Positions 21,908 through 62,605 of a DNA stretch of 64,000 bases are shown here, in pieces. Within the stretch, counting starts at the first letter, position 1. Every line of letters begins with the position of its first letter. The notes beneath the pieces were generated by a model. It was given only the letters and a program-made list of their open reading frames with translations. It made no database searches and was not told where the DNA came from. The translations under genes were made by a program, and so were the position numbers. Location: NCBI GenBank assembly GCA_000997475.1, contig LCEC01000001.1, positions 375 to 64,374 of the forward strand, in the 5' to 3' direction. This DNA comes from Parcubacteria group bacterium GW2011_GWB1_42_6 (GTDB lineage Bacteria; Patescibacteriota; Minisyncoccia; Portnoybacterales; GWB1-42-6).

Positions 21908-22039
21908 TTTTCAAATTGCAAATTCTCCTCCTTCGCTCCTTCGGAGCTTCGGAAGGACATGGCAATTTCCAATTAAGGATGAAACTATTTATATAACTCC
22001 CCCAACCCCCTCTTATCTAAGAGGGGGAATCCGCCAAGA

Positions 22040-23343: not shown

Positions 23344-23760
23344 ATGAAAATAAATTTCAAAGCGAAGGATTTGGAATTGAACGAAGAGATAAAAAATCTC
23401 GTTGAAAAAAAGCTGGAGACTTTGCGAAGATTTTTTCAAGCGAGCGATCCGGAAGCCGTGCTTGCCGAAGTTGAACTTTCGCGGACCACTCTTCATCATC
23501 AAAACGCTCAAGATCTTTTTCGGGCGGAAATAAATCTAACCATCGCCGGAAAAATGTTTCGGGCGGAATCGGAGCAATCCGATCTCCGCACGGCGCTTGA
23601 AGAAACCCGCGATGATTTGGAAAGAGAGATAAATAAATTTAAAACCAAAAGGGAGACTGTTTTTATTCGAGGCGCGCGCAGCATAAAAAAGGCTTTGAGC
23701 CTTTCGCCCTTAGCGCGTTTCAATAGAAAGTCGCAAAATAAAGAAGATGGTACCGAATAA
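23344..23760 (+). CDS. hpf: Ribosome hibernation promoting factor (HPF/RaiA/YfiA family)
   Basis: [31 protein letters not shown].. matches the HPF N-terminal domain. Confidence 0.75.
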
Positions 23761-24304
23761 AGTGTTTTTCACCAAAGGAGTCGGCGTTCATAAGGAATAC
23801 TTGATGTCTTTTGAGTTGGCGCTCCGCGACGCGGGAATCGCTCCGTTTAATTTGGTGACGGTTTCAAGCATTTACCCTCCGGGTTGCAAAAGAATCAGCC
23901 GCGAAGAAGGATTAAAAATCATAAAACCCGGGCAAATTCTTTTTGTCGTGATGAGCCGCAATGCCACCAATGAACCAAACAGACTTATGGCTTCATCCGT
24001 TGGTTGCGCCATTCCGGCGGATGCCGATCAATATGGTTATCTTTCCGAGCATCATTCTTTTGGAGAAAATGATCAGAAAGCCGGAGATTACGCCGAGGAT
24101 TTGGCGGCTTCAATGCTAGCTTCAATCCTTGGCATCGAATTTAATTCGGATTCAGCTTGGGACGAAAGGGAACAGCTTTACAAAATGGGCGGCAAAATCG
24201 TCAAAACCACCAATGTCACGCAGTCGGCTTTGGGCAATAAAGACGGATTTTGGACAACGGTTTTGGCGGCGGCGGTTTTAGTGATGCCCGAAGACGAAAA
24301 GTGA
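23747..24304 (+). CDS. pdaD: Pyruvoyl-dependent arginine decarboxylase (PdaD, archaeal type)
   Basis: [24 protein letters not shown] with the Ser-Ser self-cleavage site characteristic of PdaD; 185 aa. Confidence 0.75.
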
Positions 24305-24309
24305 GTGTC

Positions 24310-24392
24310 ACCCTACGGAATTACGGATTGGTACGGATATTACGGATTTGATTTATCTGTATAATCCGTATATATCTGTAATTCAGTAGGGT
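24310..24392. repeat. TACGGAT direct/inverted heptamer array (copy 1)
   Basis: ccctacggaattacggattggtacggatattacggatt..taatccgtatat..gtagggtt. Confidence 0.6.
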
Positions 24393-24452
24393 TATGAAAC
24401 CTCGCCATAATTAACAAGAGTTAATTAACTCAAGAAAACCCGGCGGAGGGCC

Positions 24453-25694
24453 GTGATTTTCTTTTGGTTTATGAAGCATTTAACTAAAAGATTGGTTGGG
24501 CCCCGCGTTCTCAACGAACCGATTACCGGCTCGGAAACAACGGCGGAGCTGTTTGAAAAGGCGTTTGGCGCTTATGTCGGGCGCGAAGTAAAAACCGCCT
24601 ACAATATAATCAAGCGTATGGTTGAAAAAGATCACACGGTTGTTTTGGCGATTTCAGGAGCGATGACGCCGGCTGATTTTGTCGTGCCCTGCGTGATTCC
24701 CTTGATTAAATCGGGAATCGTGGATGTCATAACCACTACCGGCGCCAATATCTATCATGATGTGCAGCGTCTTGAAAGCGACGATTGGTTTCAGGTCAAT
24801 CCTAATGAAGGCGATTTGAAATTGCGCAAAGCGGGTTGGACGAGAATTTATGACACCGCTTTTCCCGAAGACGATCTTTGGGCGACGGATAATCTGATTA
24901 TTGATCTTGTCCGCCGGTCGGATTTCGCCCATCAGATGACAACCACGCAATTTCATTATCTTTTAGGCGAGCATCTTTCCAAGCACGGACGGAGAAGATT
25001 CGCCACGGCCGATTTAAACCGCAGCTTGCTGGTTCAAGCTTATCGGCATAAAATTCCGATATTTTGCGGCGCGCCACAAGACGGTTCAATATTTTTGAAT
25101 TTGGCTTTTCTCAAAAGAAAGCTTGGCCCCAAATACAAATTCGGCATTGATATGGAACTTGATATCCATGAATTCGGCGCTTTCCACTATTTCGCCAAAA
25201 ATAAGAGATCAAAAAAATTATCGGTGATAATTTTGGGCGGCGGAGTGCCTAAAAATTATTCTTTGCAGCCCGAGCCGTATTTGACGCAAATTTGCGGAAT
25301 TGACGCGGGTGGCTACGATATGGATGTTCAAATCTCCGACGCTCACGTTCAAAACGGCGGGCTTTCTTCCTGCACGGCCTCCGAAGCTCACACTTGGGGA
25401 AAGACTTCGGAGGCGTGTTTAAAAAATTCCCAATATGTTTTTGCCGATGTCACTTCCACTTTTCCTTTTATCGTTCACGCTTTGATGCAGGAAGAATTGG
25501 AGAAGGAACCTCGCAGACTGATGGAGCATCGCGATGAAGCGATTGAACTTTTGGACAAGGTTCTCAAAAGAAAAACCTTAAGGGAATACTATCTCAAAGG
25601 AAAAGTTAAAAAAGGCGAACTGCATCCGGAAGCTCATTTTGGATCAAACCACGCCGGCCATGTTGAAAAAACGGCCGACAATCCGGAGGCGTAA
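24453..25694 (+). CDS. Deoxyhypusine synthase-like protein (DHS family; possible homospermidine synthase)
   Basis: ..VVLAISGAMTPADF..IVDVITTTGANIYHD.. resembles the DHS NAD-binding core; probable start MKHLTKRL at 24471. Confidence 0.65.
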   Translation: MIFFWFMKHLTKRLVGPRVLNEPITGSETTAELFEKAFGAYVGREVKTAYNIIKRMVEKDHTVVLAISGAMTPADFVVPCVIPLIKSGIVDVITTTGANIYHDVQRLESDDWFQVNPNEGDLKLRKAGWTRIYDTAFPEDDLWATDNLIIDLVRRSDFAHQMTTTQFHYLLGEHLSKHGRRRFATADLNRSLLVQAYRHKIPIFCGAPQDGSIFLNLAFLKRKLGPKYKFGIDMELDIHEFGAFHYFAKNKRSKKLSVIILGGGVPKNYSLQPEPYLTQICGIDAGGYDMDVQISDAHVQNGGLSSCTASEAHTWGKTSEACLKNSQYVFADVTSTFPFIVHALMQEELEKEPRRLMEHRDEAIELLDKVLKRKTLREYYLKGKVKKGELHPEAHFGSNHAGHVEKTADNPEA

Positions 25695-25818: not shown

Positions 25819-26763
25819 ATGAATTTTCTCGACATCAATCAATCTTACAAAAACGCGAAATTCGTTGTCGCGCCTTTTGGCTTTGAAGCCACCACGAGTT
25901 ATGGCGGAGGAACGAATAAAGGCCCGGCGGCAATAATCAAAGCCAGCGCCCAGGTTGAGCTTTTCGACGAAGAACTCTGGCGGGAAATCTACAAAAAGAC
26001 AGGCATTTTCACTTTGCCCGCAATAAAACCCGCCAAAAATATTCCCGGCGCCAAGAAACAGATTTCAAAAATAATCTCAAAAATTCTTGCGGATAAAAAA
26101 ATCCCGATTGTTTTGGGCGGCGAACATAGCATCACGCCTATGATAGTTGAAACATTTTCGGATTTCCTCCTCCCCTCGTCGAGGGGAGGCCATGGAGGGG
26201 TAATTAATCCTAAAATTACCTCCCCCGAACCCCTCCCTAAAAAGGAGGGAAGGAATTCCGCCGCTTCTTTCTCCATCCTCCAATTTGACGCCCACGCCGA
26301 TTTGCGCGATGGCTACTTGGGGCAAAAATATTCCCACGCGGCCGCCATGCGCCGATGTTTGGATAATGAGGGTGTTAATTTAGTCCAAGTCGGGATCAGG
26401 AACATCAGCAACGAAAATGATGAGTTGGTTTTTTGGGAAGCAAACAAAGATCGCATTAAAACTTTCTGGGCCAAAGATAAAAAAAATTGGAAGCTTTCCG
26501 AAATTATGGGTTCTCTTAGGGAAAATGTTTATTTAACCTTTGATGTTGACGCTTTTGATTCTTCGATTATGCCTTCAACCGGCACGCCCGAACCCGGAGG
26601 ATTGGATTGGTACGAAGTGATGGATATTTTGCGCGAAGTCGCCAAAACCAAAAACATCATCGGCATGGATTTTGTGGAGCTCGCTCCCATTAAAACCCTT
26701 CCCGCGCCGGATTTTTTGGTCGCCAAGATGATTTATAAGACGATAGGGTATATTTTAAAATAA
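25819..26763 (+). CDS. Agmatinase/arginase-family ureohydrolase
   Basis: Metal-binding motifs GGEHSIT, FDAHADL, SFDVDAFD; carries an in-frame palindromic insertion at 26166-26252. Confidence 0.75.
   Translation: MNFLDINQSYKNAKFVVAPFGFEATTSYGGGTNKGPAAIIKASAQVELFDEELWREIYKKTGIFTLPAIKPAKNIPGAKKQISKIISKILADKKIPIVLGGEHSITPMIVETFSDFLLPSSRGGHGGVINPKITSPEPLPKKEGRNSAASFSILQFDAHADLRDGYLGQKYSHAAAMRRCLDNEGVNLVQVGIRNISNENDELVFWEANKDRIKTFWAKDKKNWKLSEIMGSLRENVYLTFDVDAFDSSIMPSTGTPEPGGLDWYEVMDILREVAKTKNIIGMDFVELAPIKTLPAPDFLVAKMIYKTIGYILK
26166..26252. repeat. In-frame composite of three GC-rich hairpins inside the agmatinase gene
   Basis: cctcccctc-gtc-gaggggagg, ggaggggtaatt..aattacctcccc, ccctccc-taaaaa-ggaggg; the region encodes SSRGGHGGVINPKITSPEPLPKKEGRN. 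Confidence 0.6.
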
Positions 26764-28831: not shown

Positions 28832-29251
28832 TTATTCTTCCGGCTGGAAGAACTTATCCCAGAGGAGGTTATCGGAGAAGTGAGTCATGAATTCCGTCAT
28901 GGCCGTTTTGTTTTCGGCGAACGAATCGGGGATAAGGGAGATGACTTCTTCGATTGTCGGCTCTCCCTCAAATTTGATGACCGTATTTTTCTCCTGGCCG
29001 TCGTCTTTGAACATAACTTCCATTGAGACATAACGACCTTTCCAGGTGGAGATGTTGGTGTAGATCCCGAAAGCTTTTTTGCCATCATCCATGAGGATAT
29101 ACCGGAAGTAATTCCTGGAACGATGGCTTCGGCTGTGGCTGGCGAATCCTTCGGGCTTCCTTGCCATCATCCTGTCGATGATGGCCATTTCCAAGCCTTC
29201 CCTTAGCTTTTTCATTGAATGCTCCCTTGGATGAGTTTTATTTAGATGCAA
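28832..29251 (-). CDS. Hypothetical small protein (PEGFA-motif family, paralog of 29353-29808)
   Basis: ORF in a GC-richer island; shares a PEGFA..YF..G segment with the neighbouring gene. Confidence 0.3.
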   Translation of the reverse strand: MHLNKTHPREHSMKKLREGLEMAIIDRMMARKPEGFASHSRSHRSRNYFRYILMDDGKKAFGIYTNISTWKGRYVSMEVMFKDDGQEKNTVIKFEGEPTIEEVISLIPDSFAENKTAMTEFMTHFSDNLLWDKFFQPEE

Positions 29252-30321: not shown

Positions 30322-30584
30322 TCGCTTGGCCTTGCCCCGGGCGCATTCTTTGAGTTTCTCCTTCGGATTTCAACAAATCTTTCAGCTGTCATATTATCCA
30401 TGGCTTGCTCCTTGAAAACGGGTTTATTTGGTTGGGAACGAACTTCTTTCTTTGATACATAAGTATATCATATATAATCAACTGTGTCAAGGTTTGGAGC
30501 ACAGAACTCAAATGGTTGATTTTTGACGGGATTTTTTGTATAATTCGGGGAGAAACATTTAATTTTAAAGGTAAAAATCCCTCT

Positions 30585-30680
30585 CTTCGAGCCTGTCATT
30601 CGACCCCGAGGGTCTTAGACCCGAACGGGAGGGCCTCAGAGCCTCGAAGGCCCAACCTCCCTTTAGAAGGGAGGAGAAAA
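30585..30680 (+). promoter_or_regulatory. secA 5' leader made of four consecutive GC-rich hairpins
   Basis: gggtct-t-agaccc, cccgaacggg, gggcct..aggccc, and cctccctt-TAGA-aagggagg overlapping the SD. Confidence 0.5.
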
Positions 30681-30683
30681 ACG

Positions 30684-33368
30684 ATGTCCATATTCACCAA
30701 AATTTTCGGCGGGACGAATGAAAAGTCTGTTGCCAAATATAAAACGGTCATTGAAGAGATTAATAAGCTTGAACCGAAATTCGAGTCTTTTTCGGATGAG
30801 GAATTGAAATTGAAGACCGCCCAATTTAAAGAAAGATTGGGCAAAGGAGAAACTCTGGATGATATTTTGCCCGAAGCCTTCGCGGCTTGCCGCGAGGCGG
30901 CCAAGCGCGCGATCGGCCAACGGCATTTTGACGTTCAGTTGATCGGCGGAATGGTTTTGCACGAAGGAAAAATCGCCGAAATGAAAACCGGCGAAGGAAA
31001 AACTTTGGCGGCGACTTTGGCGGTATATCTCAACGCGCTTTCAGGCAAAGGCGCGCACGTTGTAACGGTGAACGATTATCTTTCCAAACGCGACGCCAAC
31101 TGGATGGGATCAATTTATCATTTTTTGGGTTTGAGCACCGGCTGCATCCAGCACGAAAAATCTTATGTTTACGAACCCAAAAAAATCGATCTCAACGAGG
31201 TAACGGTGGAAATGGAAAATCTCAAACAGGTTTCGCGGCGTGAGGCCTATGCCGCCGATATCACTTACGGCACGAACAACGAATTCGGCTTTGATTATTT
31301 GCGCGACAATATGGTGCCGGATTTCAGCGAGATGGCGCAAAGACCTGTCCTCCGAAGCCTTGGCGAAGGGGGAAAACACAACTTCGCCATTGTGGACGAA
31401 GTTGATAGCATTTTGATCGACGAAGCGCGCACGCCTTTGATTATTTCCGCTCCCGACGAAGATTCGGGCAAACTCTACGAAACTTTCGCGCGGATTGTTC
31501 CCCGCCTCAAAGAAAACGAGGATTTTAACATTGATGAAAAATTGCGCTCGGCCACTCTCACGGAAGAAGGCATTGAAAAAGTGGAAAAAATTTTGGGTTT
31601 GGGGAATATTTACACCGAAGGCGGAATAAAATACGTTCATCACTTGGAGCAAGCTTTGCGGGCGCAGGCGCTTTTTAAAAAAGATCGCCATTATGTCGTC
31701 AAAAACGGCGAGATCATTATCGTTGATGAATTTACCGGCCGCCTTATGCCCGGCAGAAGATATTCGGAAGGCCTTCATCAGGCTTTGGAAGCCAAAGAAA
31801 ACGTTACGGTGCAAAAAGAATCGCGGACTTTGGCCTCAATCACTTTTCAAAACTATTTCAGAATGTATGAAAAACTTTCGGGCATGACCGGAACCGCCAT
31901 GAGTTCGGCCGAGGAATTCGGCAAAGTCTATAATCTTGAAGTGGTGGAAGTTCCCACCCATAAGCCTCTTTCCAGGGGTGATAAATCCGATTTGATTTTT
32001 CGCACCGAGATGGGAAAATTCAAAGCGGTGATCCGTGAAGTGGAAGAACGGTACAAAAAAAATCAACCGGTTTTGATCGGCACGGCCTCGATTGATAAAA
32101 ACGAACTTTTGGACCAACTTTTAACCAAAGCCGGAATCAAGCATGAAGTTTTAAACGCCAAAAATCACGAACGCGAAGCTTTGATTATCGCCAAAGCCGG
32201 GGAGCCGGGCGCGGTGACGGTGGCGACAAATATGGCGGGGCGCGGAGTGGATATAATTTTGGGGGGAAGAATTGAATCTCACAACTCTCCCCAACCCCTT
32301 CTTAACTTAAGAGGGGGAGAGGGGGAGTTATCAAAGGATAGCTCTCAAGAAAAAAGTGAATGGCAAAAAAAACACGACTTGGTTGTTTCTTTGGGGGGAC
32401 TGGCGATCATCGGCACCGAGCGCCATGAAGCGCGCCGGATTGACGACCAGTTGCGCGGGCGCGCCGGCCGCCAGGGCGATCCGGGTTCTTCGCGGTTTTT
32501 CGTTTCGCTTGAGGACGATTTGATGAGGATTTTCGCGGCCGATCGCATCAAGGGAATGATGGAATTTTTAAAGATGCCCGAAGACGAGCCGATTGAAAAC
32601 AAAATGATCTCCAAGGCGATCGAATCGGCGCAGGAAAAAATCGAAGGATTCAATTTTGACACTCGCAAACATGTTTTGGAATATGACGATGTGATGAACA
32701 AACAGCGCGAAACGATTTATCGCAAGCGCCGGGAAATTTTGGAATCAAAAGATCTTAAAGAAAAAACTTTGGAAGCGATTTTGGGGGAAGTCAAAAAAAT
32801 CGCCCAATTCCATGCCGCGGGATACAAAGAAGAATGGAACACGAAAGAGCTCAAAGAATCATTGGGCGCGATTATGCCTCTTCCGGCTGATTTTGACGAA
32901 GCGGTTGGGAAAATTGAAACTTCCGAAAATCTGGTTGGCTTTTTGGAAAAACTCGCCGCCGATATTTACGAGATGAAAGAAAAACAAATCGGTTTTGAGC
33001 AGATGCGAGAAATCGAAAAAGTTCTCTTTTTGCGCACCACCGATATGATGTGGATGGATCATCTGGACGAGATGGAGCATTTGCGCGATTCCGTTCGCTT
33101 GCGCGCCTATGGCCAAAAAGATCCCTTGGTTGAATACAAAAACGAAGGCCACAAACTTTTTCAGGATTTGCTGGCTGCCATTCAGGCGCAATTTACGAGC
33201 ATGATTTACAAAGTGACTCTAACGCCGCCGGAGAATCGCCAATCGCGCGTCGCCAATCGCCCTTCGACAAACTCACCACAGGCAAGCTCGGGAAATAATT
33301 CGGTCGGCAGAAACGATCCGTGCCCGTGCGGGAGCGGGAAAAAGTATAAGAAGTGTTGTGGAAAATAA
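30684..33368 (+). CDS. secA: Preprotein translocase ATPase SecA
   Basis: MSIFTKIFGG.. start, DEAD-like motor motifs, and C-terminal zinc-binding CPCGSGKKYKKCCG; the ORF-track N-terminal extension from 30516 is not credible. Confidence 0.9.
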   Translation: MSIFTKIFGGTNEKSVAKYKTVIEEINKLEPKFESFSDEELKLKTAQFKERLGKGETLDDILPEAFAACREAAKRAIGQRHFDVQLIGGMVLHEGKIAEMKTGEGKTLAATLAVYLNALSGKGAHVVTVNDYLSKRDANWMGSIYHFLGLSTGCIQHEKSYVYEPKKIDLNEVTVEMENLKQVSRREAYAADITYGTNNEFGFDYLRDNMVPDFSEMAQRPVLRSLGEGGKHNFAIVDEVDSILIDEARTPLIISAPDEDSGKLYETFARIVPRLKENEDFNIDEKLRSATLTEEGIEKVEKILGLGNIYTEGGIKYVHHLEQALRAQALFKKDRHYVVKNGEIIIVDEFTGRLMPGRRYSEGLHQALEAKENVTVQKESRTLASITFQNYFRMYEKLSGMTGTAMSSAEEFGKVYNLEVVEVPTHKPLSRGDKSDLIFRTEMGKFKAVIREVEERYKKNQPVLIGTASIDKNELLDQLLTKAGIKHEVLNAKNHEREALIIAKAGEPGAVTVATNMAGRGVDIILGGRIESHNSPQPLLNLRGGEGELSKDSSQEKSEWQKKHDLVVSLGGLAIIGTERHEARRIDDQLRGRAGRQGDPGSSRFFVSLEDDLMRIFAADRIKGMMEFLKMPEDEPIENKMISKAIESAQEKIEGFNFDTRKHVLEYDDVMNKQRETIYRKRREILESKDLKEKTLEAILGEVKKIAQFHAAGYKEEWNTKELKESLGAIMPLPADFDEAVGKIETSENLVGFLEKLAADIYEMKEKQIGFEQMREIEKVLFLRTTDMMWMDHLDEMEHLRDSVRLRAYGQKDPLVEYKNEGHKLFQDLLAAIQAQFTSMIYKVTLTPPENRQSRVANRPSTNSPQASSGNNSVGRNDPCPCGSGKKYKKCCGK
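32284..32328. repeat. In-frame GC-rich palindromic insertion within secA
   Basis: ctccccaacccc ttcttaacttaaga gggggagaggggg encodes SPQPLLNLRGGEGE. Confidence 0.6.
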
Positions 33369-33430
33369 GGAGAAAGAAATCCTCCGCCATTCGGTACCTT
33401 CTTTAGAAAAGGAGGAATAAATCAAATCAT

Positions 33431-33728: not shown

Positions 33729-33770
33729 TATAAGTGAGTTATTTACGCTATAGCGTAAATAACTCACTTA
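33729..33770. repeat. Perfect 18-bp-stem palindrome
   Basis: taagtgagttatttacgc tatagc gtaaataactcactta. Confidence 0.8.
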
Positions 33771-33849
33771 TGGAAATTTGAAGGGGACATTCAGAAATAA
33801 TTAAAATAATTAAAAAGGACGGAATTTTTCCGTCCTTTTGCGTTTTTAA

Positions 33850-34435
33850 CCAGATAAACCACCAGCGTAAGCTGGTGAGTGCGTTTAAAAGCGTAGCTAT
33901 TGTACAATAAAATCACCTCGGGAAAGGAGGTGATTTTAAACATGAGCAGAAGCTATCTGCTGTATCAACTCGACCACTGCACTTACCATTGCAGTTATCA
34001 TATCGTGTGGACACCACGATTCCGCGGTAAGGTTTTGGCCGACAACTATATTAAAGCAGAATTAAAAAGAATGTTCAAACAGATTGCCAACTGGAAAGGA
34101 CTAAGGATTTATGCTTGGCACATCGGAGATGAGCACATCCATCTGCACATCTGCATTCCTCCCAAATATTCTATTGCCTACATCATTCAAATTCTCAAGG
34201 GAAAAACTTCTGGCTGGATCAAAAAGAAAACCAAGAAGTTTCCCAAAGGAGTCCTCTGGGCCAGGGGATACTTTGTTTCGACCGTTGGCATCACGGAAAT
34301 CGCCGTGAAAAAATATATTGAAAACCAGCAACACCATCAAATTGAACTTTCTCAATTAAAACTTTGTTAGCCGGCTGGCGTCAGCCAGCAAAAAGATACC
34401 CCCAGCGTTTAAGCTGGGGGTAGTTCATTTTGGCC
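33850..34435 (+). mobile_element. IS200/IS605-family insertion sequence (tnpA only) with left-end and right-end hairpins
   Basis: Y1 HUH transposase ORF flanked by similar hairpins: accagc-gtaa-gctggt at 33861 and cccccagc-gtttaa-gctggggg at 34401. Confidence 0.55.
33942..34370 (+). CDS. tnpA: IS200/IS605 family Y1 (HUH) transposase TnpA
   Basis: YHCSYHIVWTPRFR and HIHLHICIPP (HuH) motifs. Confidence 0.8.
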   Translation: MSRSYLLYQLDHCTYHCSYHIVWTPRFRGKVLADNYIKAELKRMFKQIANWKGLRIYAWHIGDEHIHLHICIPPKYSIAYIIQILKGKTSGWIKKKTKKFPKGVLWARGYFVSTVGITEIAVKKYIENQQHHQIELSQLKLC

Positions 34436-43728: not shown

Positions 43729-43868
43729 TAATCGGCATAATTGAATTCTCTTTCTTCTCTGTCATCCCCGCGCAGGCGGGGATCCAGATTAATTCAGAAC
43801 CTGGATTCCCCCCGTAGCTGCGGGGCGGGAATGACAAATATAAAGCCAATGCCGATTAGGTGCGGGGG
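43729..43868. mobile_element. MITE-like element A with 19-bp perfect terminal inverted repeats
   Basis: TIR CCCCCGCACCTAATCGGCA / TGCCGATTAGGTGCGGGGG; internal multi-hairpin core. Confidence 0.6.
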
Positions 43869-46270: not shown

Positions 46271-46767
46271 ATCTTTTATGATTTTAAAAACGACGCAATC
46301 CATCACACTCAAGAGTAAAACAGGTTGTGCTCTGATTATTTATTATTGCGGAACAAAATAAAAAGAGCGCTTCGTTTGAAAGCGCCCTCATTTTGATGCA
46401 GGCGAGAAAAAATTTTATCTAAGAATTCTCGAGTTCTCTCAGATATTTTTTCCTCGTCGGGAATTATCGTGTTAGACGACCGCCTTGTTTTCGCATTAGC
46501 GAATGTTTCGAGTTCTTAAGCTCGATCTTTTTAGGCGTTGATAACACTAACTCCCTTTATAACTTTTGGAAAATTTGGATTACCCGTCCTTCCCTTTTGG
46601 ACTTGGGAAGAGTTGGGGTGATGCTCGACTCATACTGCCTCCGTGGAATGGAGTTTTCTTGAGTGAGCGGAAGGTACTGACCGATCGAAAGCCGATAAAA
46701 ACAGCCTTCGATCATATATAGAGATTATAAAATAACGATGAGCTTGTCAAGTCTTTTCAATTTTACA

Positions 46768-46883
46768 CACACCTAGTCAGGATATTTGAATTTAATTTGG
46801 ATAATAAACAAGTTTACTCCCAATGGCTTGTTTGTCTTCGAAGGATTCTTTGAATAAAAAACAATCCTGATTAGGCGCGGGGG
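46768..46883. mobile_element. MITE-like element B, copy 1
   Basis: (c)cacctagtcagga ... tcctgattaggcgcggggg imperfect TIRs; interior is the reverse complement of copy 2. Confidence 0.55.
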
Positions 46884-46937: not shown

Positions 46938-48809
46938 ATGACGGCCAAGGAATTACGCGGTAAATATCTTGAATTTTTCAAAGCTCGGGGGCACGCGGTT
47001 ATCCCTTCGGCTTCTTTGGTTCCGCAAAACGATCCCACAGTGCTTTTTACCACCGCCGGAATGCAACCTTTAGTGCCGTATCTTTTGGGCGAAAAGCATC
47101 CCCAAGGAAAGCGGCTTGTCAATGTTCAAAAATGCCTCCGCACCAACGATATTGATGAAGTGGGTGATGCCACTCACGGAACTTTTTTTGAAATGCTTGG
47201 CAATTGGTCTTTGGGCGATTATTTTAAAAAAGAATCGTTGAGTTGGAGCTATGAATTTTTAACTTCGCCTGAATGGTTGGGATTGGATAAAAACCGTTTG
47301 GCTGTTTCGGTTTTTGCAGGGGATGACGACGCGCCATTTGATGAAGAAGCTTTTGAAATTTGGAGATCTTTGGGTATTTCTGAAAAAAGAATCACCCGGC
47401 TTCCCAAAGAAAACAATTGGTGGGGGCCGGCCGGAGAAACCGGGCCATGCGGACCGGATTCGGAAATATTTTATTGGACCGGCGCTCCGGATCAGGTTCC
47501 GGAAAGTTTCAACGATGATAACGATCTTTGGGTGGAAATCTGGAATAACGTTTTTATGCAATATAATAAAAACATAAAAGGCTCCTTTGAACCGCTTGCG
47601 CAAAAAAATGTTGACACGGGTTTGGGGCTGGAAAGGGCGCTGGTTACTCTCAATGGCTACGACGAGATTTATAAGATTGACGTTATCCGGCCGATTATTG
47701 AAAAGATAGAAGAAATTTCAGGGAAGAAATACGATGAAACTATCTCTGAAATCCCCCTTAATCCCCCTTTTACAAAGGGGGGAAATCAGAAGGCTATGAG
47801 AATCGTGGCGGATCATTTGAAAGCGAGCGCTTTTTTAATCGCCGATGGAGTTGAGCCTTCCAATACGGAGCGAGGCTATGTTTTGCGCCGGCTGATTCGG
47901 CGCGCGGTGAGATATGGCCGGCAATTGGGAATTGAAGGAATTTTTTGTTTTAAAATCGCGCGGGTCGCGATTGAAATATACAAAGATATTTATCCGGAAC
48001 TTTCGCGGGAAGAAAATTCAATCGAAGAGCAATTAACGAAAGAAGAAGAAAAATTTGCCAAGACTCTTGAATCCGGATTGAAACAATTTGAAAATGTAAA
48101 AATCAAAATTAAAAATGACAGCGCAAAATCTGGAATTATTTCCGGGGAGATCGCTTTTAATTTGTATCAGACTTACGGTTTTCCCGTCGAGCTGACAAAA
48201 GAATTGGCCAAAGAAGCCGGATTGGAAGTTGACGAGGAAAAATTTAAGGATGAAATGAAGCGCCATCAAGAACTTTCCCGCGCCGGAGCCGAACAAAAAT
48301 TCAAAGGCGGTTTAGCCGATCATTCGGAACAAACCGTCAAATACCACACGGCGGCGCATTTGCTTTTGGCGGCTTTGCGTCAAACTTTGGGCGGAGACGT
48401 AAATCAGCGTGGCGCCAATATAACAAGCGAACGATTGAGATTTGATTTTTCGCATCCGCAAAAAATGACTCCGGAACAAATTAAAGAAGTTGAGGATTTG
48501 GTGAATGAAAAAATCAAAGAAGACTTGCCGGTTGCTTGCGAAGAGATGGCCTTGGATGAAGCGAAAGCAAAGGGAGCGACTGGAATTTTCGATTCAAAAT
48601 ACGGGGAGAGGGTGAAAGTTTATACAATTGGAAGCCCTTCGACAGGTCCTTCGACAGGCTCAGGGCAATGCTCGGGGTCCGCGGCTTTCAGCCGCGAGAT
48701 TTGCGGCGGGCCGCATGTTGAAAGAACGGGAGTTTTGGGAAATTTTAAGATCGTTAAAGAAGAATCGTGTTCGGCCGGAGTGAGAAGAATCAAAGCGGTG
48801 CTGAAATAA
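46938..48809 (+). CDS. alaS: Alanine--tRNA ligase, short form (catalytic, tRNA-recognition and editing domains; no C-Ala domain)
   Basis: N-terminal class II core, editing-domain HTAAHLL motif; 623 aa; contains two in-frame insertions. Confidence 0.85.
   Translation: MTAKELRGKYLEFFKARGHAVIPSASLVPQNDPTVLFTTAGMQPLVPYLLGEKHPQGKRLVNVQKCLRTNDIDEVGDATHGTFFEMLGNWSLGDYFKKESLSWSYEFLTSPEWLGLDKNRLAVSVFAGDDDAPFDEEAFEIWRSLGISEKRITRLPKENNWWGPAGETGPCGPDSEIFYWTGAPDQVPESFNDDNDLWVEIWNNVFMQYNKNIKGSFEPLAQKNVDTGLGLERALVTLNGYDEIYKIDVIRPIIEKIEEISGKKYDETISEIPLNPPFTKGGNQKAMRIVADHLKASAFLIADGVEPSNTERGYVLRRLIRRAVRYGRQLGIEGIFCFKIARVAIEIYKDIYPELSREENSIEEQLTKEEEKFAKTLESGLKQFENVKIKIKNDSAKSGIISGEIAFNLYQTYGFPVELTKELAKEAGLEVDEEKFKDEMKRHQELSRAGAEQKFKGGLADHSEQTVKYHTAAHLLLAALRQTLGGDVNQRGANITSERLRFDFSHPQKMTPEQIKEVEDLVNEKIKEDLPVACEEMALDEAKAKGATGIFDSKYGERVKVYTIGSPSTGPSTGSGQCSGSAAFSREICGGPHVERTGVLGNFKIVKEESCSAGVRRIKAVLK
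47752..47786. repeat. In-frame GC-rich palindromic insertion within alaS
   Basis: tccccctta atccccctttt acaaa ggggggaaat encodes PLNPPFTKGGN. Confidence 0.6.
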
Positions 48810-48856
48810 CAGTTAATGCAAAATGCAAATTTCAAAACGCAGATTACTCTCTTTTT

Positions 48857-48935
48857 GTCATTCCCGCGCAGGCGGGAATCTAGATTAATTCAGAATTAGA
48901 CTTGGGTCTGGATCCCCGTTTTCACGGGGATGACA
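48857..48935. repeat. TIR-less copy of the MITE-A core (GTCAT..ATGAC multi-hairpin unit)
   Basis: gtcattcccgcgcaggcgggaatctagattaattcagaa.. is about 80% identical to 43761-43837. Confidence 0.55.
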
Positions 48936-48973
48936 TCTATGGTTGGGTTTATTTTAATTTTAAAATTTATTTT

Positions 48974-49417
48974 ATGTCTGACATCAAAAAACCCGGCGTG
49001 GGCTTTGGGGTGATGATTGAAAAGAAAGGTAAAATCCTTTTGGGCCGGCGCCATAGCGATCCCAAGAAAGCTTCCAGCGAACTTCACGGCGAAGGCGCTT
49101 GGACGATGCCCGGAGGCAAATTGCATTTTGGCGAAACTCCCGAGGAAGGGGCTTGCCGGGAAGTTTTGGAAGAAATCGGCGTGAAAATAAATTCAAGAAG
49201 GCTCAAGCTCATAAGCGTTTCCAATGATATGGTGAGCGACGCGCATTTTATCACTTTGGGATTCAGATATCCGAGTTTTAAGGGCAGTCCCAAAGTGATG
49301 GAGCCGGATGAAATCGTTGAATGGCGCTGGTTTAATCCCAAGGCATTGCCCAGCCCTATGTATTTTCCCAGCGAACGGGTGTTCAAGCATTTTAAGAGAG
49401 GCAAAATATACGGATAG
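48974..49417 (+). CDS. NUDIX hydrolase
   Basis: Nudix box GGKLHFGETPEEGACREVLEEIGV. Confidence 0.75.
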   Translation: MSDIKKPGVGFGVMIEKKGKILLGRRHSDPKKASSELHGEGAWTMPGGKLHFGETPEEGACREVLEEIGVKINSRRLKLISVSNDMVSDAHFITLGFRYPSFKGSPKVMEPDEIVEWRWFNPKALPSPMYFPSERVFKHFKRGKIYG

Positions 49418-49530: not shown

Positions 49531-49647
49531 CCCGCACCTAGTCAGGATTGTTTTTTATTCAAAGAATCCTTCAAAGACAAACAAGCCATTGGGAGTAAAC
49601 TTGTTTATTATCCAAATTAAATTCAAATATCCTGACTAGGCGCGGGG
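49531..49647. mobile_element. MITE-like element B, copy 2 (inverted relative to copy 1)
   Basis: cccgcacctagtcagga ... tcctgactaggcgcgggg. Confidence 0.55.
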
Positions 49648-49659
49648 ATAAAATAAACT

Positions 49660-59002: not shown

Positions 59003-60271
59003 ATGGATAAATTCATTATAAACGGCGGGCGTCCTCTTGCGGGCGAAATTGAGGTGCGAGGCTCCAAAAACGCGGCTACGCCGATTTTGGCCGCCTGTCT
59101 TTTAACCGAAGAGCCCTGCGAAATAGACAATTTGCCTTTGATCGAGGATGTGTTTAGAATTATAGAAATTCTTAAAAGCATGGGTGTCGAGATTGAATGG
59201 ACCGGCCAAAGAAAAATAAAAGTTCAAGCAAAAAACATTAATCCCGGGCAAATTGATCAGCATAAAGTTTGCCAATTGAGATCGTCGATTTTAATAATCG
59301 GCGGACTTTTGGGCAGATTCGATGATTTCAAAATCGGCCATCCCGGCGGCTGCATTATCGGGAGCCGGCCGGTGGAAACCCATTTTGAAGCTTTGATAAA
59401 ATTAGGCATTAATGTTTCGGAGGAAAACAATTTTTATCAAATAAAAAAGAACGATTCCCAAGATTCCGTTTCCAGAAAAATTGTTTTAAAAGAATTTTCC
59501 GTAACCGCGACGGAGAATGTTTTAATGGCCTCGGTTCTTAGACCCGGGAAAACTATTTTGCGTATCGCGGCGGCCGAACCGCATGTAAAAGAATTGGCCG
59601 TTTTTTTGAATAAAATGGGAGCAAGAATCAGCGGGGTCGGCGCTCATGAAATTGAAATTGAAGGAGTAAAAAAATTAAAAGGCGCCGATCATTTTATTAT
59701 GCCTGATCCGATTGAGGCGGGAACTTTTATTATCGCGGCGGCTGCCACGCGGGGAAAAGTAAGGATAATTAACGCGATTCCCGATCACCTCGATTCGGTT
59801 TTGGAGAAGTTGAGGGAAATGGGAGTTAATCTCTCGGTTGAAAATGGCAGCGTTTCAGTGGGCAGTTCTTCGCGTTTTAAGGCGGCTAAAATCCAGGCCT
59901 TGCCTTTTCCGGGAATTCCAACCGATTTGCAAGCGCCGATAGCTGTTCTTTGCACGCAAGCCGAGGGGACAAGTTTAATCCACGATCCTTTATATGAAGG
60001 TCGGTTTAAATACATAAATGAACTGGTAAAAATGGGAGCCAGCGCCACAATTCTTGATCCTCATCGGGCGGTAATCACCGGACCGTCTTTTTTGTCGGGA
60101 AAAGAAATTACCAGTTTTGATTTGCGAGCTGGCGCCACTTTGATCATCGCGGCGCTGGTAGCCAAAGGCGAATCGCGAATTTCCGAAATTTACCAAGTTG
60201 ACAGAGGGTATGAAAAAATAGAAGAAAGGCTTTCGGCTTTGGGAGCGGATATAAGAAGAGTAAAAGAATAA
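59003..60271 (+). CDS. murA: UDP-N-acetylglucosamine 1-carboxyvinyltransferase MurA
   Basis: MDKFIINGGRPLAGEIEVRGSKNAATPILAACLL.. two-domain EPT fold. Confidence 0.9.
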   Translation: MDKFIINGGRPLAGEIEVRGSKNAATPILAACLLTEEPCEIDNLPLIEDVFRIIEILKSMGVEIEWTGQRKIKVQAKNINPGQIDQHKVCQLRSSILIIGGLLGRFDDFKIGHPGGCIIGSRPVETHFEALIKLGINVSEENNFYQIKKNDSQDSVSRKIVLKEFSVTATENVLMASVLRPGKTILRIAAAEPHVKELAVFLNKMGARISGVGAHEIEIEGVKKLKGADHFIMPDPIEAGTFIIAAAATRGKVRIINAIPDHLDSVLEKLREMGVNLSVENGSVSVGSSSRFKAAKIQALPFPGIPTDLQAPIAVLCTQAEGTSLIHDPLYEGRFKYINELVKMGASATILDPHRAVITGPSFLSGKEITSFDLRAGATLIIAALVAKGESRISEIYQVDRGYEKIEERLSALGADIRRVKE

Positions 60272-61501: not shown

Positions 61502-62605
61502 ATGACTATTGGCATTAACGCCTCGGCGGCTGTCAAAAAGAATAGAACCGGAGTGGAAGAATACGCTTATCAGCTCATAAAGCATTTGGCGATGATTCCC
61601 GAGTCCCAAAAGCATCGTTTTTTTCTATATTTGCCATCCGCAGTTTTAGCAAAGGAAGGTTTGCCCGACAATGTTTTTGATTTTTCTTTCCCTGAAAATT
61701 TTATAATAAAAAAACTTTGGTGGCCGCTGCCTTTCTTCTGGACGCAAATAAGATTGTCTCTGGAAATGATTTTTTTTGCGCCGGACGTTCTTTTCATCCC
61801 CGTTCATATTTTGCCTTTCATTCATCCAAAAAAATCCATTGTTTGTGTTCACGGCCTTGAATATGAATATCTGCGCGGATTCTATTCTTTTTCCCATCGT
61901 TTGTTTTTGCGTTGGAGCACCAAATTTTCCGCCGCGAAATCTTTCCGGATAATCGCGGTTTCTCAAAATACCAAGAACGATTTGGCAAAAATATATAAGA
62001 CAGATACTGATAAAATAAAAGTGGTAAAACACGGGATTTCCTTTCCCCCTTTAGAAAGGGGGATTAAGGGGGATTTTTTAAGGAAGAAAGAAAAATATAT
62101 TTTATATCTAGGCCGCATCGAAACCAAGAAGAATATCCAAGGAATTATTGAAGCGTATGAAATTCTGAATAACAAATATAGCATTCACCACAAGCTTGTT
62201 TTAGCCGGTTCAAAAGGATACGGCCATAAGAATTTAAAAATACCGAGCGATGTGATTCAGACCGGATTCGTGAGCCAAGAAAAAAAAGAAGTCTTGATGA
62301 ACAACGCCGCAATATTTCTATTTCCCTGTTTTTACGAGGGTTTTGGTTTGCCGATTCTTGAAGCTCAAGCGGCGGGAATTCCCGTCGTGACTTCTTATAA
62401 TTCTTCAATGCCGGAAGTGGCCGGGGAAGGGGCTTTATTTGTTGATCCGCGCAATCCGGCTCAAATCGCCCGGGCCGTTAAAAAAATAATTGACGACAAT
62501 CTCTTGCGTGATAAACTGATACAATCGGGATTTGAGAACATAAAAAAATTTTCTTGGGAAAAATGCGCTCGGGAAACGCTGGATTTTTTAAGCAGCTTGG
62601 AATAG
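61502..62605 (+). CDS. Glycosyltransferase family 4 (GT-B)
   Basis: C-terminal EGFGLPILEAQAAGIPVVT sugar-donor-binding motif. Confidence 0.75.
   Translation: MTIGINASAAVKKNRTGVEEYAYQLIKHLAMIPESQKHRFFLYLPSAVLAKEGLPDNVFDFSFPENFIIKKLWWPLPFFWTQIRLSLEMIFFAPDVLFIPVHILPFIHPKKSIVCVHGLEYEYLRGFYSFSHRLFLRWSTKFSAAKSFRIIAVSQNTKNDLAKIYKTDTDKIKVVKHGISFPPLERGIKGDFLRKKEKYILYLGRIETKKNIQGIIEAYEILNNKYSIHHKLVLAGSKGYGHKNLKIPSDVIQTGFVSQEKKEVLMNNAAIFLFPCFYEGFGLPILEAQAAGIPVVTSYNSSMPEVAGEGALFVDPRNPAQIARAVKKIIDDNLLRDKLIQSGFENIKKFSWEKCARETLDFLSSLE
62041..62075. repeat. In-frame GC-rich palindromic insertion within the GT4 gene
   Basis: ctttccccctttagaaagggggattaagggggat encodes SFPPLERGIKGD. Confidence 0.55.

What the first reader, a model, noticed from the sequence alone, without database searches (positions are those of the whole stretch)
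30585..30680. secA leader consists of four consecutive GC-rich hairpins, the last overlapping the Shine-Dalgarno
gggtct-t-agaccc, cccgaacggg, gggcct..aggccc and cctccctt-TAGA-aagggagg lie directly upstream of the genuine secA start at 30684. The ORF-track start at 30516 merely reads through them. The last hairpin sequesters the GGAGG ribosome-binding site. This could be a translational regulatory structure for secA, or simply a landing pad for the palindromic element family.
Basis: seen in the sequence. Interest (0 to 1): 0.5.

Follow-up and report, generated by a model that had tools for sequence, protein, structure and literature searches.

The report
Palindromic repeat insertion in secA leader
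The GC-rich hairpins in front of secA are real, but they are a lineage-specific insertion of small palindromic repeats into an otherwise short AT-rich leader, not a conserved control device for secA, so the finding is fairly ordinary.

Summary
The window comes from a groundwater Parcubacteria/Portnoybacteria population (GW2011_GWA1_42_7 / GWB1_42_6). secA starts at 30684, and the 30516 ORF start only reads through the leader. A promoter-like site at 30516-30544 puts about 133 nt of leader on the mRNA. The last stem is a perfect 8-bp stem that contains GGAGG. Structure exceeds shuffles modestly (z -2.5). Nine relatives with 69-74% SecA identity, and about 20 more distant ones, have AT-rich secA leaders without this block or a GGAGG. 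One relative carries a different complete palindromic element at the same place, and another lineage carries its remnant. The last hairpin matches a family of C-run/G-run hairpins (6 perfect copies against 0.47 expected). This family also sits in frame inside secA, alaS, an arginase-family gene and a glycosyltransferase gene. About 72% of genes here have no Shine-Dalgarno, so the "sequestered RBS" may not be the working RBS. Rfam, a custom covariance model, a uORF check and a six-frame peptide search gave no support for a dedicated regulator. Best reading: a selfish or neutral repeat insertion, perhaps damping translation.

The parts
30516..30544 (+). Sigma-70-like promoter of secA: TTGATT, 17-nt spacer, TATAAT. 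The predicted transcription start is about 30551.
   Evidence: Consensus scan, 10 of 12 matches. The TTTTTTG(GG)TATAAT part aligns with the secA upstream regions of relatives L168 and L169. The upstream genes lie on the other strand, so secA needs its own promoter here.
30551..30578 (+). AT-rich 5' part of the leader, resembling the whole leader of relatives. It contains AAAGGT, a possible ancestral weak ribosome-binding site.
   Evidence: Sequence. Relatives' leaders are this short and this AT-rich. That AAAGGT is the ancestral RBS is an inference.
30579..30676 (+). GC-rich composite palindromic block, about 97 nt. It is an insertion relative to all relatives examined.
   Evidence: GC is 0.59, against 0.33-0.35 in the flanks. 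It appears as an alignment gap of about 85-95 columns (about 79 in L168) in the four closest relatives. It has no paralogue in the window or the fetched loci.
30585..30649 (+). Inner part of the block, bounded by 10-nt inverted repeats CTTCGAGCCT / AGCCTCGAAG. It may be a nested palindromic unit.
   Evidence: Inverted repeat I1, 90% complementary. The nesting is an inference only.
30605..30629 (+). Compound stem-loop: CCCG/CGGG enclosing GGGTC-TTA-GACCC.
   Evidence: -12.5 kcal/mol, 0.91 of the ensemble.
30627..30632 (+). Second GGGAGG. It could pair with the CCUCCC arm of the last hairpin as a decoy.
   Evidence: Inverted repeat I4: AACGGGAGG against CCTCCCTTT, 89% complementary. This pairing is not populated in the predicted ensemble.
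30631..30653 (+). Stem-loop GGGCCU / AGGCCC.
   Evidence: -11.3 kcal/mol. The only population SNP, G30639A in L162, lies in its loop region.
30650..30676 (+). Unit of the C-run/G-run hairpin family: GCCC-AA-CCTCCCTT-TAG-AAGGGAGG-AG.
   Evidence: It aligns with window copies at 21997, 26220, 32287, 47753 and 62076rc. This hairpin class is enriched: 6 copies against 0.47 expected.
30656..30674 (+). Perfect 8-bp hairpin with a 3-nt loop. Its 3' arm holds GGAGG (30670-30674), 9 nt before the ATG.
   Evidence: -11.5 kcal/mol. GGAGG unpaired probability is at most 0.01.
30684..33368 (+). secA coding sequence (894 aa).
   Evidence: Homologues align from residue 1, and the Pfam SecA domains are present.
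32287..32327 (+). Copy of the same hairpin family, in frame in the variable loop of SecA (SPQPLLNLRGGEGEL).

Best explanation
The hairpins are a lineage-specific insertion of about 97 nt (30579-30676). It is made of short GC-rich palindromic repeats and sits in what was a short, AT-rich, Shine-Dalgarno-free secA leader.

The 3' unit (30650-30676) belongs to a family of C-run/G-run hairpins with the layout [C-run]-AA-[CCYCCYTT loop AAGGGAGG]. This family is scattered through this genome and its relatives, in intergenic DNA and in frame inside genes. The 5' part (30579-30649) is a unique cluster of small palindromes of unknown source.

The block is transcribed as part of the secA mRNA. This is inferred from the promoter position and from there being no room for a promoter downstream of it. 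The block folds into three stem-loops.

The GGAGG looks like a sequestered ribosome-binding site, but it is simply the purine arm that every member of the family carries. This organism mostly initiates translation on unstructured A/U-rich start regions without a Shine-Dalgarno, and the secA start region (30675-30700) remains open. The block is therefore most likely tolerated selfish or neutral DNA. At most it acts as a constant mild brake on, or stabiliser of, secA expression. It is not a signal-responsive regulator.

Shown here: the structure, the absence from relatives, the family resemblance, and recurrent occupation of this site by other palindromic elements. Inferred: transcription through the block, neutrality, and the mode of origin.
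For: (1) No conservation. The four closest relatives (69-74% SecA identity; L167-L170) align across the promoter and the ATG, but the block is a gap of about 85-95 columns in three of them and about 79 in L168. Nine such relatives have 23-35% GC in the 140 nt upstream, against 51% here. About 20 more distant Patescibacteria also lack it. A covariance model of the leader finds only itself in 72 relatives' loci.

(2) The site is reused. L171 (70% identity) has a complete TGTCATTCCCGC...GCGGGATGACA palindromic element ending 11 nt before the secA ATG. L168 and L173 have its remnant 9 nt before the ATG.

(3) Family membership of the last unit. It aligns with five other copies in the window. Pyrimidine-first C-rich perfect hairpins number 6 in the window, against 0.47 (maximum 2) in shuffles. 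The same hairpins occur in relatives.

(4) The family behaves like selfish DNA. It sits in frame in SecA, an arginase-family protein, AlaRS and a GT4 glycosyltransferase, always at loops or linkers.

(5) A Shine-Dalgarno is dispensable here. 42 of 58 genes have no SD-like 4-mer near the start. Relatives' secA leaders have no GGAGG. The AUG region stays about 73% unpaired.

(6) No regulatory signature was found. Rfam gave no hit. No terminator-like site lies in the leader. There is no uORF with ATG, GTG or TTG after the predicted start. The SD is paired in essentially the whole ensemble, so no alternative state is visible.

(7) Removing 30578-30681 would leave AAAGGTAAAAACGATG, a normal-looking start region (sequence; inference).
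Against: The 5' two-thirds of the block has no second copy in the 64-kb window or in the 170+ loci. A six-frame peptide search of 5.8 billion proteins also found nothing. Mobility of that part is therefore not shown, and there is no convincing target-site duplication (only A5 on each side).

The nearest relative is only 74% identical in SecA, so a young regulatory innovation cannot be excluded by missing conservation.

The block is fixed and almost invariant in six assemblies of the population.

An 11-kcal/mol hairpin 9 nt from the start of an essential gene could well affect expression. The upstream GGGAGG decoy offers the ingredients of a switch.

The transcription start is predicted, not measured.
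Confidence: 0.65

Rival explanations
1. The block is a dedicated cis-acting translational regulator of secA. The last hairpin locks the GGAGG ribosome-binding site. Some signal (cold, secretion stress, a helicase, a protein) opens it, possibly by re-pairing the CCUCCC arm with the upstream GGGAGG decoy at 30627-30632.
For: GGAGG lies 9 nt before the ATG and is fully paired, with an opening cost of about 11 kcal/mol. A second GGGAGG is complementary to the anti-SD arm (I4). The block is fixed in the population. secA is a known target of SD-occluding control in other bacteria (secM-secA; PMC10987492, PMC7897499).
Against: It is not conserved in any of about 30 relatives. The alternative pairing would destroy two other helices and is essentially unpopulated in the ensemble. 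The perfect 8-bp stem is unlike a thermometer. 72% of genes, and secA in relatives, lack an SD. The opening cost ranks only 10th of 62 genes in a crude scan. Rfam gave no hit.
Confidence: 0.15
2. The block is an exapted RNA-stability or processing element. The three 5'-UTR stem-loops protect the secA mRNA from 5'-end-dependent decay, or they are RNase entry sites, as described for REP, ERIC and Correia elements.
For: There are three stable stem-loops in the 5' UTR. Palindromic repeats are known to alter transcript fate (review PMC10969869).
Against: The stems start about 35-55 nt from the predicted 5' end, so they do not cap it. The stems are 5-8 bp, too short for RNase III. The block is not conserved in relatives. 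No transcript data are available.
Confidence: 0.1
3. The function is at the DNA level. The perfect palindromes (for example GGGTCT-T-AGACCC) are operators for a dimeric regulator sitting between the promoter and the start codon.
For: The 13-bp palindrome has one near-copy at 59533, giving 4 strand-matches against 0.39 expected.
Against: The second copy lies inside a coding region. No regulator gene is adjacent: relatives have a PaaX_M gene upstream of secA, but this genome does not. There is no conservation.
Confidence: 0.05
4. The leader is a SecM/MifM-type monitoring system. An upstream arrest peptide would be translated through the hairpins, and ribosome stalling would expose the secA start.
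For: One frame ends at the TAG in the loop of the last hairpin. This would be the right geometry.
Against: That frame, and every other frame, lacks an ATG, GTG or TTG between the predicted transcription start (about 30551) and 30684. The only in-frame start (TTG at 30516) is the -35 box itself. The read-through peptides have no homologue among 5.8 billion proteins.
Confidence: 0.02

Closest known systems
Rickettsia palindromic elements (RPEs) and other small prokaryotic MITE-like palindromic repeats (Correia, ERIC, BOX, QMITE)
   Same: They are GC-biased, hairpin-forming, non-autonomous repeats. They are found both between genes and in frame inside essential genes at tolerated loops, and they are able to alter neighbouring gene expression (PMC10969869). 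Here the C-run/G-run hairpins sit in frame in SecA, AlaRS, an arginase-family protein and a GT4 protein, and in the secA 5' UTR.
   Different: The units here are much smaller (about 20-45 nt, against about 100-150 nt). No terminal inverted repeats with target-site duplications are evident. No transposase partner was identified. The 5' two-thirds of the leader block is single-copy in all data available here.
REP/BIME elements mobilised by RAYT transposases
   Same: They are clusters of short imperfect palindromes in transcribed intergenic DNA.
   Different: The only Y1 transposase in the window is IS200-type. The RAYT model scores 25.8 bits against a cut-off of 80. Its own end hairpins (CCAGC/GCTGG) differ from those in the leader. 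There is no GTAG-type conserved head. The family occurs inside genes, whereas REPs are extragenic.
secM-secA (and MifM-yidC2, VemP-secDF2) SD-occluding stem-loops
   Same: It is a stem-loop that buries the ribosome-binding site of a Sec-machinery gene (PMC10987492, PMC7897499).
   Different: There is no upstream ORF or arrest peptide here, and no conservation. The organism largely dispenses with SD sequences.
IS200 tnpA 5'-UTR stem-loop that sequesters its SD
   Same: It is a constitutive, perfect SD/anti-SD hairpin that keeps translation low (PMC4513863). The IS200 copy 3.2 kb downstream in this window has exactly such a hairpin (ATCACCTC...GAGGTGAT, 33918-33940).
   Different: That hairpin is conserved across IS200 copies and serves the element. 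The secA hairpin is not conserved and belongs to a dispersed repeat family.

Membership tests
C-run/G-run hairpin family of this genome (D3) | A 5' C-run, then AA, then a pyrimidine-first hairpin CCYCYYTT-loop-AARGRGGG. | tested here: met
   30650-30676 (GCCC-AA-CCTCCCTT-TAG-AAGGGAGG) aligns with five other window copies. This applies only to the last unit of the block.
C-run/G-run hairpin family of this genome (D3) | The hairpin class is over-represented relative to composition. | tested here: met
   6 perfect copies against a mean of 0.47 (maximum 2) in 30 dinucleotide shuffles. The rate is about 1.9 per 64 kb in 1.2 Mb of other loci.
TGTCATTCCCGC...GCGGGAATGACA three-hairpin element (window 43760, 48856; L171 secA leader) | A significant match to a covariance model built from family copies. 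| tested here: not met
   Model R2 scores 10-12 bits (E 0.2-0.6) on 30611-30679, the same as other unrelated hairpin clusters, whereas true copies score 75-80 bits. Only the 8-mer TGTCATTC at 30594 is shared.
MITE | Terminal inverted repeats, a target-site duplication and multiple copies. | tested here: inconclusive
   A 10-nt inverted repeat at 30585-94 / 30640-49 is 90% complementary. Only A5 runs flank the block. There is no second copy in the window, the loci or the protein database. The rest of the genome could not be searched.
REP/RAYT system | A RAYT gene, with extragenic palindromes that resemble those flanking it. | tested here: not met
   The Y1 transposase is IS200-type: NF033573 scores 114.9 bits, and the RAYT model NF047646 scores 25.8 bits against a cut-off of 80. 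Its flanking hairpins differ. Family copies lie inside genes.
SecM/MifM/VemP-type monitoring substrate | An upstream ORF encoding an arrest peptide whose translation opens the SD-occluding stem. | tested here: not met
   There is no ATG, GTG or TTG ORF in 30551-30683 in any frame. The read-through peptides have no homologues.
Known riboswitch, thermometer or leader RNA families (Rfam 15) | A match to a curated covariance model. | tested here: not met
   There were 0 hits at gathering thresholds in the window. Only chance-level eukaryotic miRNA/snoRNA matches (E of 0.2 or higher, far below gathering) appeared in 30400-30800.
Conserved cis-regulatory leader of secA | Structure or sequence conserved upstream of secA in related genomes, with covariation. 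| tested here: not met
   The block is absent from 9 relatives at 69-74% SecA identity and from about 20 more distant ones. No relatives between 74% and 99.9% identity exist in the databases searched, so recent origin cannot be tested.
Intrinsic terminator / transcription attenuator | A GC-rich stem followed by a U-run. | tested here: not met
   No terminator-like site lies on the + strand between 30545 and 30684. The last stem is followed by AGAAAAACG.

The most novel reading that the evidence does not exclude
A palindromic-repeat insertion has been exapted into a three-part translational switch for secA. The anti-SD arm CCUCCCUU (30656-63) would pair either with the SD arm (30667-74, off) or with the upstream decoy GGGAGG (30627-32, on). 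This would be a young, lineage-specific control of the Sec motor in a CPR bacterium that otherwise initiates translation without Shine-Dalgarno sequences. It would show repeat families acting as raw material for riboregulators.
Probability: 0.08. Interest if true: 0.55.

Novelty: new member of a known kind. Interest (0 to 1): 0.25.

Why it matters
For secA biology the result matters little. The leader structure is a private feature of one groundwater Portnoybacteria population, with no sign of conserved regulation.

The wider context is more useful. In this CPR clade, tiny GC-rich palindromes repeatedly colonise the same tolerated spots: the secA leader, the SecA variable loop, and loops of AlaRS and other enzymes. 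They carry SD-like purine arms in a genome that mostly does not use an SD.

This affects annotation in three ways. It produces false N-terminal extensions, such as the ORF from 30516. It produces apparent "sequestered RBS" motifs. It also causes assembly breaks at repeats. It offers a small-genome system for asking how selfish hairpins are tolerated in essential genes, much as for Rickettsia RPEs.

Tried and rejected
- **Rfam.** Gathering thresholds on the whole window and E-value mode on 30400-30800 gave nothing meaningful.
- **Paralogues.** blastn-short of the block against the window and against 160+ loci found none.
- **Six-frame peptide search.** A pseudo-protein made from the six-frame translations of the block, searched against 5.8 billion proteins to catch in-frame or ORF-called copies elsewhere, gave no hit at E <= 10.
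- **Covariance model of the leader (R1).** Searched against 72 relatives' loci, it found only itself. Weak hits (E 0.2-7) fell on other hairpin clusters.
- **Covariance model of the TGTCATTCCCGC element (R2).** I suspected the block was a diverged copy, because it starts with TGTCATTC and relatives carry that element at the same site. I rejected this: 10-12 bits only.
- **Nested insertion.** The idea is that a C-run element was split by a 65-nt unit bounded by CTTCGAGCCT / AGCCTCGAAG. The alignment after deleting 30585-30649 looks plausible, but I chose the boundaries knowing the repeat, so I keep this as speculation.
- **Arrest-peptide uORF.** Rejected, because there is no start codon.
- **RAYT/REP link through the nearby Y1 transposase.** Rejected, because it is IS200-type.
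- **Strain-level covariation.** The six assemblies differ by one loop SNP, which is uninformative. No relatives between 74% and 99.9% identity exist in the databases.
- **SD occlusion as an outlier.** The crude scan places secA 10th of 62 genes. Start-codon picking was approximate, so this is weak evidence either way.

Full report
**Source and gene model**

The exact SecA protein of the window is encoded on six independent assemblies of Rifle groundwater samples. These include NCBI GCA_000996265.1 (LCEI01000016.1). The protein cluster is named Parcubacteria group bacterium GW2011_GWA1_42_7 / GWB1_42_6. The best-named relatives are Candidatus Portnoybacteria.

All gene callers start secA at the ATG at 30684 (894 aa). 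Homologues from GTDB genomes and metagenomes align from residue 1. The ORF listed from TTG 30516 only reads through the leader. Its extra 56 residues have no homologue anywhere.

**The observation**

Two corrections apply.

- GGGTCT-T-AGACCC (30610-22) and CCCGAACGGG (30620-29) share the CCC. In the MFE and centroid folds they form one compound stem-loop at 30605-30629 (CCCG/CGGG around GGGTC-UUA-GACCC, -12.5 kcal/mol).
- The loop of the last hairpin is TAG.

The region therefore holds three independent stable stem-loops: 30605-29, 30631-53 (-11.3 kcal/mol) and 30656-74 (-11.5 kcal/mol, a perfect 8-bp stem). A weak stem-loop lies at 30587-30603.

The 96 nt fold at -41.5 kcal/mol, against -32.4 +/- 3.6 for dinucleotide shuffles (z -2.52; 3 of 200 shuffles fold as well). 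Among 3994 windows of 96 nt, this one is 6th by raw energy and about 62nd after GC correction. The structure is real and more than chance, but it is one of at least ten comparably structured spots in the 64 kb.

GGAGG (30670-74) is wholly in the 3' arm. Its predicted unpaired probability is at most 0.01, and opening 30668-89 costs about 11 kcal/mol. The AUG and the next 16 nt are about 73% unpaired.

**Is the block on the mRNA?**

The genes upstream are on the opposite strand, so secA needs its own promoter within 30322-30683. The best + strand site is TTGATT-17-TATAAT at 30516-30544. Its T-rich spacer and -10 box align with the secA upstream regions of relatives L168 and L169.

Only 9 nt separate the last stem from the ATG, and nothing promoter-like lies inside the block. 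The block should therefore be part of a leader of about 133 nt. This is an inference, since no 5' ends are available. No terminator-like site lies in the leader.

**Conservation**

No relative between 74% and 99.9% SecA identity exists in the databases searched. I fetched the secA loci of eight proteins at 69-74% identity (L167-L174). I also read the upstream regions of about 20 more distant Patescibacteria.

None has the block. Their last 140 nt upstream are 23-35% GC, against 51% in the window. Their leaders are short and contain no GGAGG. In a MAFFT alignment the promoter region and the ATG align, and the block is a gap of about 85-95 columns in three of the four closest relatives and about 79 in L168. 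A covariance model of the leader, searched over the window plus 72 relatives' loci, found only itself. Its weak hits (E 0.2-7) fell on other palindrome clusters, not on secA leaders.

**The site is a recurrent landing place**

L171 (70% identity) carries a complete 73-nt TGTCATTCCCGC...GCGGGATGACA three-hairpin element ending 11 nt before its secA ATG, and its contig begins exactly at that element. L168 and L173 keep a remnant (...TCCAGAATGACAATTTATAGT-ATG). The same family occurs twice in the window (43760-43836 and 48856-48935).

The window's block begins with TGTCATTC at 30594, so I tested homology with a covariance model of that family. True copies score 75-80 bits. The secA leader scores 10-12 bits (E 0.2-0.6), like unrelated hairpin clusters. 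The block is therefore not a member, but the position is clearly one where palindromic elements are tolerated repeatedly.

**What the last hairpin is**

The window contains a family with the layout [C-run]-AA-[pyrimidine-first hairpin], for example CTCCCCCAACCCCCTCTTatctAAGAGGGGG. It is family D3, with sequences. The leader's GCCC-AA-CCTCCCTT-TAG-AAGGGAGG (30650-76) aligns with these copies.

Perfect pyrimidine-first C-rich hairpins number 6 in the window, against a mean of 0.47 (maximum 2) in 30 dinucleotide shuffles. They occur at about 1.9 per 64 kb in 1.2 Mb of other loci. Every member has an SD-like purine 3' arm, so the "sequestered GGAGG" comes with the element.

Four or five of the seven copies lie in frame inside genes:

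- the SecA variable loop (SPQPLLNLRGGEGEL);
- an arginase-family protein (three hairpins);
- AlaRS;
- the linker of a GT4 glycosyltransferase.

Relatives carry the same hairpins, or quite different palindromes, at the same SecA loop. This is the behaviour described for Rickettsia palindromic elements (PMC10969869), on a smaller scale.

**The rest of the block**

The part at 30579-30649 is single-copy in everything I could search: the window, the loci, and a six-frame peptide search of 5.8 billion proteins. It is bounded by a 10-nt inverted repeat, CTTCGAGCCT / AGCCTCGAAG. It may be a unit nested within a C-run element, but that is speculation. There is no convincing target duplication, only A5 on both sides. 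Removing 30578-30681 would leave AAAGGTAAAAACGATG, an ordinary start region (inference).

**Does SD occlusion matter?**

In 58 genes of the window, 42 have no SD-like 4-mer within about 20 nt of the start. Their starts are A/T-rich. Relatives translate secA without an SD. The secA start region here stays open.

In a crude scan, the cost of opening the secA start ranks 10th of 62 genes. The top-ranked gene is the IS200 tnpA 3.2 kb downstream, whose SD-sequestering hairpin is a known feature of IS200 (PMC4513863).

The hairpin may lower secA translation somewhat, but nothing indicates regulated release. The SD is paired in essentially the whole ensemble. The only alternative partner for the anti-SD arm, GGGAGG at 30627-32, would cost two other helices. 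The stem is perfect, unlike a thermometer. No uORF with a canonical start exists. Rfam finds nothing.

**Verdict**

The hairpins are real. The "four hairpins" are three. The start-codon and read-through statements are right.

The best-supported explanation is a lineage-specific insertion of palindromic repeat DNA into the secA 5' UTR (confidence about 0.65). Its last unit belongs to an abundant hairpin family. The insertion is tolerated because initiation here does not depend on an SD, and it may act as a constant mild brake.

A dedicated riboregulator is possible but unsupported (about 0.15). An exapted stability element (about 0.1), an operator (about 0.05) and an arrest-peptide system (about 0.02) are less likely.

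It is a new member of a known kind of thing, of low to moderate interest. The in-frame colonisation of essential genes by these tiny hairpins across Portnoybacteria is the more notable by-product.

Noticed in passing
window 32287-32327; L167 11606-11670; L170 4579-4630; L171 1663-1711; L174 3155-3172; L168 SecA loop: The variable loop of SecA, between DIILGG and GGLHIIGTERHE, carries in-frame palindromic DNA in many Portnoybacteria. Several genomes have the same CCCYCYYT...ARRGRGGG hairpins, coding PPQPSLKGG or SPQPLLNLRGG. Others have quite different long palindromes (L168, -70 kcal/mol). SecA lengths range from 843 to 1005 aa.
   Followed up: partly
window 26169-26249 (arginase-family ORF 25819-26763), 47753-47784 (alaS 46938-48809), 62044-62076 (GT4 ORF 61502-62605): C-run/G-run hairpins lie in frame and free of stop codons inside three other genes. 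They sit at positions that Pfam profiles treat as insertions or linkers, and they are read as Pro/Leu...Gly-rich loops.
   Followed up: partly
window 33860-34422: An intact IS200-type tnpA (33943-34370; NF033573 at 114.9 bits, RAYT model below cut-off). It has CCAGC/GCTGG end hairpins and the classic SD-sequestering stem ATCACCTC...GAGGTGAT (33918-33940). This gene has the highest start-opening cost in the window.
   Followed up: partly
window 43760-43836 and 48856-48935; L171 1-73; L003 2148-2216: A three-hairpin palindromic element, TGTCATTCCCGC...GCGGGAATGACA, of about 70-80 nt. It has two copies in the window and copies in other CPR genomes. Contig L171 begins exactly at a copy.
   Followed up: partly
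window 46761-46881 and 49531-49651: A 121-nt inverted repeat, 93% complementary, brackets alaS and the following ORF 48902-49417.
   Followed up: no
window 33730-33771; L168 ~2810-2845; L170 ~2890-2930; L172 ~1410-1455: A long perfect hairpin with an invariant core CGCTATAGCG and covarying outer stem. In relatives it lies between a PaaX_M-domain gene and the secA promoter. In the window it lies after the DUF3850 gene downstream of secA, and no PaaX_M gene is nearby. It could be an operator or a terminator.
   Followed up: no
window 33378-33424; L081 3066-3150: An element of about 45 nt, AAATCCTCCGSC...CCTYCTTTAGRAAAGGAGGAATAAA. It is an anti-SD-like arm paired with AAGGAGG. It is conserved between the window (just before the DUF3850 gene) and a relative at 68% SecA identity, where it is tandemly duplicated downstream of secA.
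   Followed up: partly
whole window (58 gene starts): 42 of 58 genes have no Shine-Dalgarno-like 4-mer within about 20 nt of the start. Their start regions are A/T-rich instead, which suggests mostly SD-independent initiation in this organism.
   Followed up: partly
window 24305-24400: A very stable long hairpin (about -61 kcal/mol over 24290-24460) built from repeated TACGGAT units, in the gap between ORFs 23747-24304 and 24453-25694.
   Followed up: no
window ~29073-29176 and inside secA (~31580-32220): Several public assemblies of this population end or diverge near 29110-29175. Truncated SecA entries begin at residues 301, 477 and 512, one of them just before the in-frame palindrome. Some assembly breaks may therefore fall at repeats.
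   Followed up: no
window 59533-59545: GGTTCTTAGACCC, a one-mismatch copy of the leader palindrome GGGTCTTAGACCC, lies inside ORF 59003-60271. It is probably chance.
   Followed up: no
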